Shown here piece after piece: positions 51,101-54,100 of a stretch of DNA of 64,000 nt. Positions within the stretch are counted from its first letter, which is position 1, and each line of letters begins with the position of its first letter. The DNA lies in assembly GCF_056712565.1 (NCBI RefSeq), contig NZ_CM160072.1, one strand, 5' to 3'. The position numbers were made by a program.

Positions 51101-54100
51101 CACATGGTTTTCAATTATCACCGCACCTGTAATACGGCTCTCACCTTGTATGACAACGTGCTCGTCGAGCAGAATCGGTCCGCCACGTACCACGGCATTT
51201 CCGCCAATCAAGACATGATGTTTTAACACACAATTACCTTCCACAATGGCATATTCCGCCACCTGTGAACTGTAATGAATCGTCGGAATGGCATCTTCTT
51301 CTATGCCAGCTTTCACCTGCGCGTGACCGTAGACTTTAGCGCAATCGCATAGCCAGACGTTGTTCTCTTCATTACCTTCAACACTGGCAAAATCAAAAAC
51401 TTCGGCGCGATGTTCAATAAAAGCATACCGGACGACGGCATCGCCATAAATTTGTGCCTGGTGGACAATACGCGAGGCGCTAACCTTTGCGCGATCATAA
51501 ATTTGTAGCAGGAGTTGATGGTCGGGCGTTAAGCCTTGTGCGGCGACGATCATAGAATGTTGATCAATTAAGGCGTGACCAAATATTCTACATTGACCAC
51601 AAACTAATGAGTCACGAATGGTGACACTGTCACTTATATATGCACCCTGGCTGATTTCACTATTATCGATCCAGACATTATCCGTTGCGTAAACCTCTCC
51701 CCACAGCACGCTGGTGCCGGTGATACGCGTATTCCCGGAAATCACCGTTCCGCCGAACGCAATAGCATTCTGGTCGTAAATCCAGCAATTTCCTTCCTGT
51801 GCTAACACCGTTTCGTGATCGATCCAGCCGCCAGCGCTTCCTGCTATCACATCGTTAAAATCGCTCATGGCGATAATTTGCCGTAATAACACACTTTTTT
51901 TAGTGCCATCTTCCTGATAACTAAAGGCTCGCTGTTCTTCACTTAGACGATATTTACGCATAGCGTTTTCCCACAGGTGACTTACTATAACCGTAGCAAA
52001 TTCTGCGGCTCTGGCTATGCTCGAGAAAATTCCATAAAATGCATTTCAAATATACTTTATAAATTAAACAAAATGAGTAAGAAGATGCAGAGCGATAAAG
52101 TGCTCAATTTGCCGGCAGGCTACTTTGGTATTGTGTTGGGGACGATAGGGATGGGATTTGCCTGGCGCTATGCCAGCCAGCTTTGGCAGGTCAGCCACTG
52201 GTTGGGTGATGGGCTGGTGATTCTGGCGATGATCATCTGGGGATTATTGACTGGCGCATTTATTACCCGACTCATACGCTTTCCGCATAGCGTGCTGGCA
52301 GAAGTGCGCCATCCAGTGCTGAGCAGTTTTGTGAGTTTGTTTCCGGCAACGACGATGCTGGTGGCGATTGGTTTTGTTCCGTGGTTTCGCCCACTGGCGG
52401 TGTGCCTGTTCAGTTTTGGTGTCGTGGTTCAGTTGGCTTATGCCGCATGGCAAACTGCGGGATTATGGCGCGGATCTCACCCTGAAGAAGCTACCACGCC
52501 TGGACTGTATCTGCCGACAGTTGCCAACAACTTTATCAGCGCAATGGCCTGTGGTGCGTTGGGCTACACCGACGCCGGTCTGGTGTTTTTAGGCGCAGGC
52601 GTTTTCTCATGGCTAAGCCTGGAACCGGTGATCTTGCAGCGTCTGCGCAGTTCGGGAGAATTACCCACGGCACTGCGGACATCACTCGGCATTCAGCTCG
52701 CTCCTGCGCTGGTGGCCTGTAGTGCCTGGCTGAGCGTCAACGGCGGCGAGGGTGACACGCTGGCGAAAATGCTTTTCGGTTATGGACTGCTGCAACTGCT
52801 GTTTATGCTACGTCTGATGCCATGGTATCTCTCCCAGCCATTTAATGCTTCATTCTGGAGTTTCTCGTTCGGTGTATCTGCACTGGCAACCACCGGTTTG
52901 CATCTGGGGAGTGGCAGCGATAATGGATTTTTCCATACGCTGGCGGTGCCGCTGTTTATCTTTACCAATTTTATTATTGCAATACTGCTCATCCGTACTT
53001 TTGCGCTTCTGATGCAGGGAAAATTGTTAGTCAGAACCGAGCGCGCCGTTTTAATGAAAGCAGAGGACAAAGAATGATCATTCGTGATGAAAACTATTTT
53101 ACTGATAAATATGAATTAACCCGCACACACTCTGAAGTGCTGGAAGCGGTGAAAGTGGTTAAACCGGGTAAAACGCTGGATCTGGGCTGTGGCAATGGTC
53201 GTAACAGTCTTTACCTGGCAGCCAATGGTTATGATGTTGACGCATGGGATAAAAATGCCATGAGTATCGCCAACGTCGAGCGCATTAAGTCCATTGAAAA
53301 TCTGGATAATTTACACACCCGGGTCGTTGATCTGAATAACCTCACATTTGATGGACAGTACGATTTTATTCTTTCTACTGTGGTGCTGATGTTCCTTGAG
53401 GCTAAAACCATCCCAGGGCTGATTGCCAATATGCAACGTTGCACTAAACCTGGCGGTTACAACCTGATTGTGGCGGCGATGGATACCGCTGATTATCCAT
53501 GTACCGTCGGCTTCCCGTTTGCCTTCAAAGAGGGGGAATTACGTCGATATTACGAAGGCTGGGAGAGGGTGAAATACAATGAAGACGTCGGCGAGCTGCA
53601 CCGCACCGACGCCAACGGTAATCGTATTAAACTGCGTTTCGCCACGATGCTGGCACGTAAAAAATGATCCGGTAAGAACAAAGCGCGTGAAAATTCCCCA
53701 CGCTGAGATGGTTTACTGTTCTTCTTTTCGGTAAGCATATTTTTTATCGAAGGGATGTGAAATTAATCACAGTAGTCGAAGTTTTTTAGCCGCTTAACTT
53801 ACTGAAATTTAACTACTGATGATTGACTTAGCCCCTTTTTCGGCATTGACTATGTCGTCTGAAAAGGGGCTAAAAAATTTATTTTCACCAACACTTTTTT
53901 TGCCACAACACGAAGCGGCGCTTTTTGCTATAACTTAGAAAGTAATATAATCATCTCAGGAAACTATTCATGCGTACCACATCATTTGCGAAAGTTGCAG
54001 CTTTATGCGGCTTGTTGGCTCTGTCTGGTTGTGCCTCTAAAATCACCCAGCCAGATAAATATTCTGGTTTTTTAAACAATTACTCTGATTTAAAAGAAAC

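What the first reader, a model, noticed from the sequence alone, without database searches (positions are those of the whole stretch)
53829..53877. Long perfect hairpin in the tehB-ydcL intergenic region
A 12-bp inverted repeat (ttagccccttttt / aaaaggggctaa) with a loop of about 24 nt, flanked by A/T runs, sits 160 bp after tehB and 90 bp before ydcL. It is not a simple GC-rich terminator. It could be a bidirectional terminator, a small RNA 3' end or a protein-binding palindrome.
Basis: seen in the sequence. Interest (0 to 1): 0.2.

Follow-up and report, generated by a model that had tools for sequence, protein, structure and literature searches.

The report
tehAB mRNA 3'-end stem-loop
The hairpin is real and conserved, and published RNA 3'-end maps of E. 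coli K-12 place transcript ends 1-5 bases after it, so it is most likely an ordinary end-of-transcript stem-loop for the tehA-tehB operon that lacks the usual run of U's.

Summary
The inverted repeat exists. Its arms are 53828-53839 and 53862-53873: 12 perfect pairs with 22 nt between them. As + strand RNA it folds at -25.3 kcal/mol (z -5.2). About 0.12 such repeats are expected per window by chance. It is single-copy, unannotated, and present at 95% identity or more in 5406 of 5426 complete E. coli genomes.

In K-12, published 3'-end maps (TRS, PMC10687069) place + strand RNA 3' termini at 1502361, 1502363 and 1502365, which correspond to window 53874-53878. That is 1-5 nt after the stem, and the authors' table shows this same fold. 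No U tract follows the stem; an A6 run does. It is therefore neither a canonical nor a bidirectional terminator.

Citrobacter and Salmonella carry a hairpin of different sequence at the same position. It has 10 pairs with a change on both sides and mostly + strand G.U wobbles, which points to selection on RNA structure. Long-read data (PMC6131387) list a tehA-tehB unit without ydcL. They also list a ydcL start site at 1502347 (window 53860), inside the hairpin DNA. This would explain the two invariant ATTGACT boxes as promoter elements.

Verdict: an ordinary, uncharacterised 3'-end stem-loop of the tehAB mRNA. Whether the ends arise by Rho-dependent termination plus trimming or by weak intrinsic termination is unresolved. 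Low interest.

The parts
53074..53667 (+). tehB coding sequence, last gene of the tehA-tehB unit whose transcripts run into the hairpin
   Evidence: ORF list. RefSeq annotation of matching loci. tblastn 99.5% identity. The tehA|tehB unit starts at K-12 1500535 in SMRT-Cappable-seq.
53828..53839 (+). 5' arm of the stem, TTAGCCCCTTTT (T53840 can add a U.G pair)
53840..53861 (+). Apical region. In E. coli an inner 6-bp helix (53841-53846 with 53852-53857) leaves a 5-nt loop. CGGCA...TGTCG is shared with the apical part of the Salmonella hairpin. The region contains the invariant CATTGACTAT.
53862..53873 (+). 3' arm of the stem, AAAAGGGGCTAA (K-12 has G at 53872, giving a U.G pair on the + strand)
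53874..53878 (+). Positions equivalent to the mapped dominant RNA 3' termini of K-12 (1502361, 1502363, 1502365; peak range 1502359-1502368 = window 53872-53881)
   Evidence: TRS supplementary tables. Coordinate mapping checked on NC_000913.3. K-12 was measured, not this strain.
53874..53885 (+). A-run then TTTATTTT directly after the stem. There is no U tract at the stem base. AAAAAATT is also kept after the Citrobacter/Salmonella hairpin.
53823..53828 (+). TTGACT, probable -35 of an Escherichia-specific distal ydcL promoter (inferred)
   Evidence: Invariant in all 9 Escherichia sequences. Lies 19 nt upstream of GACTAT. Start site mapped at K-12 1502347.
53848..53853 (+). GACTAT, probable -10 of the distal ydcL promoter, inside the hairpin loop (inferred)
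   Evidence: Invariant. Ends 7 nt before the mapped start site.
53860..53860 (+). Position equivalent to the K-12 transcription start 1502347 for ydcL and ydcL-insQ transcripts. These RNAs carry only the 3' arm.
   Evidence: SMRT-Cappable-seq operon table. Mapping.
53926..53941 (+). Proximal ydcL promoter: TGcTATAAC (-10 at 53929-53934) and start site 53941 (= K-12 1502428)
   Evidence: A sigma-S holoenzyme SELEX peak lies in this spacer.
53970..54638 (+). ydcL (DUF3313 lipoprotein), the downstream gene

Best explanation
The inverted repeat encodes an RNA stem-loop in the 3' untranslated region of the tehA-tehB transcript (+ strand). Transcripts coming from tehA end, at steady state, 1-5 nt after the base of this stem.

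The stem is followed by A6UUUAUUUU, not a U tract. The likely mechanism is therefore the one described for U-less terminal hairpins. Transcription stops at or shortly beyond the hairpin, either by Rho or by weak hairpin-driven release over an all-A/U hybrid. 3'-to-5' exonucleases then trim back to the stem, which protects the tehAB mRNA and marks the boundary with the ydcL promoters.

Shown: the hairpin, its conservation, covariation in the positional homologue, and the 3' ends and start sites in K-12. Inferred: that the ending transcripts are tehAB transcripts, the mode of termination, and the protective role.

Separately, in Escherichia the same DNA appears to carry a distal ydcL promoter (-35 just 5' of the stem, -10 in the loop, start before the 3' arm).
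For: 1. The stem is stable on the + strand: -25.3 kcal/mol, z -5.2.
2. In K-12, + strand 3' termini were called in three lists, with dominant positions 1502361, 1502363 and 1502365. The authors' own fold is this hairpin at -25.4 kcal/mol. I mapped these positions to 1, 3 and 5 nt after the last pair.
3. The TRS label '5' UTR ydcL' is only a positional default, assigned to ends within 100 nt of the ATG.
4. SMRT-Cappable-seq lists a tehA|tehB unit from 1500535. No unit joining tehB to ydcL appears in the rows of the cut table that were returned.
5. Almost every genus with tehB followed by ydcL has a strong hairpin right after tehB. Several are canonical terminators with U tracts: L041, L055, L062, L058, L063, L066.
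6. Citrobacter and Salmonella have a hairpin of different sequence at the same distance from ydcL. It has 10 of 15 pairs with a change on both sides (2 of 500 shuffles reach this). It is 83% paired, against 31-49% when the partners are slid. RNAalifold finds it independently.
7. Wobble pairs favour the + strand: 25 against 14 cells in that set, and 14 against 4 in Escherichia.
8. An Escherichia lineage (L004) that has lost 128 nt after tehB keeps the hairpin 33 nt from the stop codon.
9. Downstream DNA has C above G (13 against 6 in 50 nt), as reported for this class.
Against: - The 3'-end and start-site data are from K-12, not this strain. The hairpin differs at one base.
- Nothing here shows which promoter feeds the RNAs that end at the hairpin.
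- Rho dependence is untested. The bicyclomycin list of Adams et al. has no entry here. Their Term-seq lists call no 3' end anywhere between 1498877 and 1504925, not even at ydcL's own canonical terminator, so they are uninformative.
- Within Escherichia the stem is almost invariant, so covariation there is not above shuffles.
- The sequence homology between the Escherichia and Salmonella hairpins rests on a short shared apical motif.
Confidence: 0.75

Rival explanations
1. The hairpin ends a separate short transcript: a small RNA, or a prematurely terminated ydcL leader. This transcript would start from an unmapped promoter in the Escherichia-specific insert between tehB and the hairpin, possibly one controlled by the perfect CRP box at 53756-53771.
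For: - TRS files the 3' end under 'premature in 5' UTR of ydcL'.
- A perfect, conserved CRP core lies 57 nt upstream of the stem.
- A weak sigma-70-like pair TTAACT-18-GATGAT (53794-53823) would start transcription at about 53830. This is my reading of the sequence and falls below the scan threshold.
- Adams et al. called no tehB 3' end, so tehAB RNA may be scarce.
Against: - The TRS class is a positional default.
- No start site upstream of the hairpin appears in the operon table, although that table lists only units that cover a gene.
- There is no Rfam match.
- L004 has lost the whole insert yet keeps the hairpin, and in Citrobacter/Salmonella the hairpin begins 10-25 nt after the tehB stop, leaving no room for a promoter.
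Confidence: 0.12
2. The symmetry acts at the DNA level, as a palindromic binding site for a regulator of ydcL or as a cruciform, and the RNA hairpin is a by-product.
For: - The element lies upstream of both ydcL start sites and overlaps a probable promoter.
- The core GCCCCTTTT/AAAAGGGGC is nearly invariant within Escherichia.
- ydcL responds to Rob and sigma-S.
Against: - The half-sites are 34 bp apart centre to centre, which is unusual for a dimeric regulator.
- Substitutions in the arms are mostly T/G combinations, which pair only as + strand RNA.
- Sister genera keep the pairing but not the sequence.
- RNA ends map exactly at the stem base.
Confidence: 0.06
3. It is a canonical or bidirectional intrinsic terminator.
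For: The stem-loop is strong. TTTATTTT lies 5-12 nt after it. The first 9 nt after the stem are all A/U, so the RNA:DNA hybrid would be weak. The called peak range extends to 8 nt after the stem.
Against: - The terminator scan does not call it.
- There are no U's in the first 4 nt after the last pair on the + strand. On the - strand the tail is GUCAAUCAUCAG.
- The dominant 3' ends lie in the A-run, before the U's.
- The 15023xx rows returned from the held TRS tables are all on the + strand, so no - strand end was found there.
- No - strand gene runs into the site.
Confidence: 0.07

Closest known systems
U-tract-less terminal stem-loops at the 3' ends of Rho-dependent E. coli transcripts (Dar and Sorek 2018, PMC6061677)
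   Same: A stable stem-loop with a precise steady-state 3' end directly after it. No U-rich tail and no A-rich tract upstream. Mild C-over-G excess downstream.
   Different: Rho dependence and exonuclease trimming have not been shown for this site. An A6 run follows the stem. A start site for the next gene lies inside the hairpin DNA.
Canonical intrinsic terminators, for example ydcL's own at 54647-54666 or the one at 30472-30501 in this window
   Same: A stem-loop downstream of the last gene of a unit, on the coding strand, with similar folding energy. Orthologous tehB 3' hairpins in other genera do have U tracts.
   Different: No U tract at the stem base. The stem is long (12-13 bp plus an apical helix). 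The 3' ends lie at +1 to +5, not +7 to +9 within U's.
The tehB-ydcL spacer hairpin of Citrobacter and Salmonella (CTGCGTTCAGCA-T7-TGCTGAGCGCAG)
   Same: Same position (3' edge about 95-100 nt before the ydcL ATG). The same AAAAAATT follows. It shares the CGGCA...TGTCG apical motif with Salmonella and has no U tract.
   Different: The basal stem sequence is unrelated. There are no ATTGACT boxes and no promoter-like hexamers. It starts 10-25 nt after the tehB stop, not 160 nt.
REP/BIME intergenic palindromes that stabilise upstream mRNA
   Same: An intergenic imperfect palindrome that can block 3' exonucleases.
   Different: This element is single-copy (median of 1 place per genome) and has no REP consensus, so it is not a member.

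Membership tests
Canonical intrinsic (Rho-independent) terminator | Stable stem-loop on the transcribed strand downstream of a gene | tested here: met
   -25.3 kcal/mol, z -5.2; 160 nt after tehB on the + strand
Canonical intrinsic (Rho-independent) terminator | U-rich tract starting 0-2 nt after the stem | tested here: not met
   The tail is AAAAUUUAUUUU after the last pair. The element was not called by the terminator scan. In the TRS table the longest U run is 4, and it lies beyond the mapped end.
Canonical intrinsic (Rho-independent) terminator | RNA 3' ends 7-9 nt after the stem, inside the U tract | tested here: not met
   Dominant ends are at +1, +3 and +5 in K-12.
Bidirectional terminator | A tract before and U tract after the stem, with transcripts ending on both strands | tested here: not met
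   The 5' flank is TGATGATTGAC and the A-run is on the 3' side. The 15023xx rows returned from the held TRS tables are all + strand. There is no convergent gene.
U-less protective 3' stem-loop of Rho-dependent transcripts | Precise steady-state 3' end immediately downstream of a stable stem-loop | tested here: met
   Published K-12 data read here and mapped
U-less protective 3' stem-loop of Rho-dependent transcripts | No U-rich tail, no upstream A tract, and C above G downstream | tested here: met
   (C 13 against G 6 in the next 50 nt)
U-less protective 3' stem-loop of Rho-dependent transcripts | Read-through when Rho is inhibited (bicyclomycin) | tested here: inconclusive
   The Adams et al. 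bicyclomycin list has no entry at the hairpin, but their lists call nothing in this locus at all. The Dar and Sorek tables are not held.
U-less protective 3' stem-loop of Rho-dependent transcripts | 3' end shifts or the mRNA is destabilised when PNPase/RNase II or the stem is altered | not testable with these tools
   Needs experiments.
Small RNA gene | Own promoter and start site, with a matching RNA family or conserved unit | tested here: inconclusive
   There is no Rfam match (best E 0.14, far below gathering score) and no mapped start upstream. Shigella Ssr15 is a prediction on the other strand and is not validated.
Dispersed repeat (REP/BIME, ERIC, MITE) | Many copies per genome | tested here: not met
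   Median of 1 place per genome in 5406 genomes. The motif occurs only here in the window.
Small protein gene (39-codon ORF 53819-53938) | Start codon and reading frame kept among relatives | tested here: not met
   ATG is ACG in L006 and ATA in L008, and both have frame-shifting indels.

The most novel reading that the evidence does not exclude
The 46 bp serve two functions that are mechanistically coupled. As RNA they end tehAB transcripts. As DNA they form the spacer, -10 and start site of an Escherichia-specific distal ydcL promoter. RNA polymerase sitting at that promoter (or promoter occlusion by tehAB read-through) would then set how efficiently a hairpin without a U tract stops transcription, linking tehAB and ydcL expression.
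Probability: 0.12. Interest if true: 0.35.

Novelty: new member of a known kind. Interest (0 to 1): 0.12.

Why it matters
It adds little beyond annotation. It gives the tehAB unit a defined 3' end in E. coli. It corrects a database-style label ('premature end in the ydcL 5' UTR') that is only a positional default. It is also a clean example, backed by covariation, of a conserved terminal hairpin that works without a U tract. The overlap with a start site for the next gene is a small curiosity that could be used to study terminator-promoter interference.

Tried and rejected
- Rfam scan at a permissive threshold gave only chance-level hits.
- Alternative long-range pairing of 53779-53795 with 53864-53880 (I1) was rejected, because the 5' partner is not complementary in K-12, L005 or other Escherichia.
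- The three copies of TTAGCCSCTT are explained as the two arms plus that non-conserved partner.
- The 39-codon ORF overlapping the hairpin was rejected, because the start codon and frame are lost in two lineages.
- A dispersed-repeat or mobile origin was rejected.
- - strand promoters inside the hairpin were checked by eye; no acceptable hexamer pairs were found.
- Covariation within Escherichia alone is not above shuffles because the stem barely varies.
- Literature: no paper text contains the hairpin sequence. The 'tehAB terminator' and 'tehB bicyclomycin' searches were empty of relevant work. The 'tehB CRP' search gave nothing on the CRP box.
- The Adams 2021 and TERMITe supplements have no entry for this locus.
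- Supplements of Dar and Sorek 2018, Conway 2014 and PMC9023263 are not held, and Thomason 2015 is not held.

Full report
**What is in the sequence.** The window is E. coli. The tehB-ydcL spacer is 100% identical to strain 7/2 and to an APEC O2:K1:H4 strain. The genes are tehA, tehB (53074-53667, +), ydcL (53970-54638, +) and ydcO (- strand). The repeat search finds arms 53828-53839 and 53862-53873, 12 nt and 100% complementary, 22 nt apart. As + strand RNA, the segment 53820-53890 folds at -25.3 kcal/mol. The fold has a 13-pair basal stem (including U53840.G53861), a 3-nt bulge, a 6-pair apical helix and a 5-nt loop. Shuffles average -11.3 +/- 2.7 kcal/mol (z -5.2). The - strand folds less well, at -19.3 kcal/mol. 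Perfect inverted repeats of this size are expected 0.12 times per shuffled window. Only the 3' flank is an A/T run.

**What it is not.**
- No Rfam family matches.
- The terminator scan does not call it, because nothing U-rich follows the stem on either strand.
- It is single-copy. 5406 of 5426 complete E. coli genomes have it at 95% identity or more, with a median of one place per genome and nothing annotated there, including in MG1655.
- The 39-codon ORF that overlaps it loses its start codon and frame in two Escherichia lineages.

**Comparative evidence.** A scan of one genome per species with YdcL returned 80 loci. About half of them have tehB directly upstream.
- Escherichia species keep the hairpin. 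The core GCCCCTTTT/AAAAGGGGC is almost invariant. One outer pair runs U-A, U.G, C-G, and one lineage (L004) shifts register but stays paired. Formal covariation within Escherichia is not above shuffles, because so little varies.
- Citrobacter and Salmonella have a spacer only about 155 nt long. It carries a hairpin of different sequence whose 3' edge lies at the same distance from ydcL. The same AAAAAATT follows it. It shares CGGCA...TGTCG with the apical part of the E. coli hairpin.
- That hairpin covaries strongly. 10 of 15 pairs have a change on both sides (2 of 500 shuffles reach this). The covariation score is 0.321 against 0.218. It is 83% paired, against 31-49% when the partners are slid. 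RNAalifold recovers it independently.
- Mismatch types favour + strand RNA. T/G combinations outnumber A/C combinations 25 to 14 there and 14 to 4 in Escherichia.
- Across other genera, a strong hairpin follows tehB almost everywhere. Several are canonical terminators with U tracts.
- L004 has lost 128 nt after tehB yet keeps the hairpin 33 nt from the stop.

Together these results indicate selection for an RNA structure at the end of the tehB transcript.

**Experimental evidence from the literature.**
- The TRS paper (PMC10687069) lists a + strand 3' terminus peak in MG1655 at 1502359-1502368. The dominant positions in three lists are 1502361, 1502363 and 1502365, with adjusted p-values down to 4e-28. 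The printed upstream sequence and fold (-25.4 kcal/mol) are this hairpin.
- On NC_000913.3 the last pair of the stem is at 1502360, so the ends lie at +1, +3 and +5, inside the A-run. In window coordinates these are 53874-53878.
- The paper's label 'premature in 5' UTR of ydcL' is assigned to any end within 100 nt of a start codon whose 5' UTR is unknown. It is not evidence for attenuation.
- The 15023xx rows returned from the held TRS tables are all on the + strand.
- SMRT-Cappable-seq (PMC6131387) lists a tehA|tehB unit from 1500535, and no unit joining tehB to ydcL appears in the rows returned from the cut table. It lists ydcL start sites at 1502428 and 1502347.
- 1502428 equals window 53941. 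That is exactly 7 nt after the conserved TGcTATAAC, which I had taken as the ydcL -10 element. A sigma-S holoenzyme SELEX peak lies in this spacer.
- 1502347 equals window 53860, one base before the 3' arm.
- The Term-seq lists of Adams et al. call nothing between 1498877 and 1504925, not even ydcL's own canonical terminator. They say nothing either way.

**Mechanism.**

Shown:
- a stable, conserved + strand stem-loop;
- RNA ends at its base in K-12;
- no U tract;
- a tehAB unit that does not include ydcL.

Inferred:
- the RNAs that end here are tehAB transcripts;
- the hairpin either stops exonucleases after termination a little further on, or itself drives release over the all-A/U stretch AAAAAAUUU.

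The first option matches the pattern Dar and Sorek described for Rho-dependent transcripts, including the C-over-G excess downstream. I cannot separate these two options with the tools available.

**A second layer.** The start site at 53860 implies a promoter whose -35 is TTGACT (53823-53828) and whose -10 is GACTAT (53848-53853), 19 nt apart. These are the two ATTGACT boxes, which are invariant in all nine Escherichia sequences while the stem positions around them vary. Citrobacter and Salmonella lack them. In Escherichia, therefore, the DNA that encodes the 5' arm and loop also appears to serve as a distal ydcL promoter. RNAs made from it carry only the 3' arm. This is an inference from one start-site table plus the sequence.

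**Comparison with known kinds, and novelty.** The element works like the U-less terminal stem-loops of Rho-dependent transcripts. It meets their structural criteria, but Rho dependence and exonuclease dependence are untested. It fails two defining features of a canonical intrinsic terminator and all the features of a bidirectional one. It is not a REP-type repeat. The 3' end is already present in a published genome-wide table, but nobody has described or assigned it. I class it as a new member of a known kind, of low interest.

Noticed in passing
window 53756-53771: A perfect CRP core, TGTGA-N6-TCACA. It is the only one in the window (0.03 expected). It is kept in all Escherichia spacers except the one with a deletion. 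It lies in an Escherichia-specific insert of about 130-145 nt between tehB and the hairpin. It is 96.5 nt upstream of the distal ydcL start site, which is not a standard activating position, so its target is unclear.
   Followed up: partly
window 53893-53941: The proximal ydcL promoter TGcTATAAC, with start site 53941 (K-12 1502428). A conserved box TTTTTGYCACAAC lies exactly 23 nt upstream of the -10 in Escherichia, Klebsiella and other genera, which suggests an activator site. Published data show a sigma-S SELEX peak here and lower ydcL expression in a rob mutant.
   Followed up: partly
L084 201-307 and L087 (strains 20Ec-P-124 and FCI1): An allele with a 36-nt slipped partial duplication inside the hairpin (AGCCCCTTTTTCGGC and TTTTTCGGCATTGACTATGTC are repeated). 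It leaves two candidate 5' arms.
   Followed up: partly
window 55855-55902: A 13-bp perfect inverted repeat, GTGCGTTATAACG-N22-CGTTATAACGCAC, in the 89-nt divergent ydcO/ydcN spacer. It looks like a pair of operator half-sites for the adjacent XRE-type regulator YdcN.
   Followed up: no
window 53685-53761, - strand: A promoter-like TTCACA-16-TATGCT and a terminator-like hairpin GCGTGGGGAATTTTCACGC with a U-rich tail on the - strand. Together they would give an RNA of about 50 nt antisense to the tehB 3' UTR. A purely predicted, unvalidated Shigella candidate ('Ssr15') covers this spacer on that strand. The hairpin is not kept in L005.
   Followed up: partly
L004 2827-3000 (Escherichia sp. MOD1-EC7003): This lineage has a 174-nt tehB-ydcL spacer. 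About 128 nt directly after tehB, including the CRP box, are missing, while the hairpin and both ydcL promoters remain.
   Followed up: yes
window 54639-54672 compared with L001 and L002: Other strains carry IS609 with insQ (K-12) or IS200C (strain 7/2) between ydcL and ydcO. This window has neither, only the shared terminator hairpin at 54647-54666.
   Followed up: no
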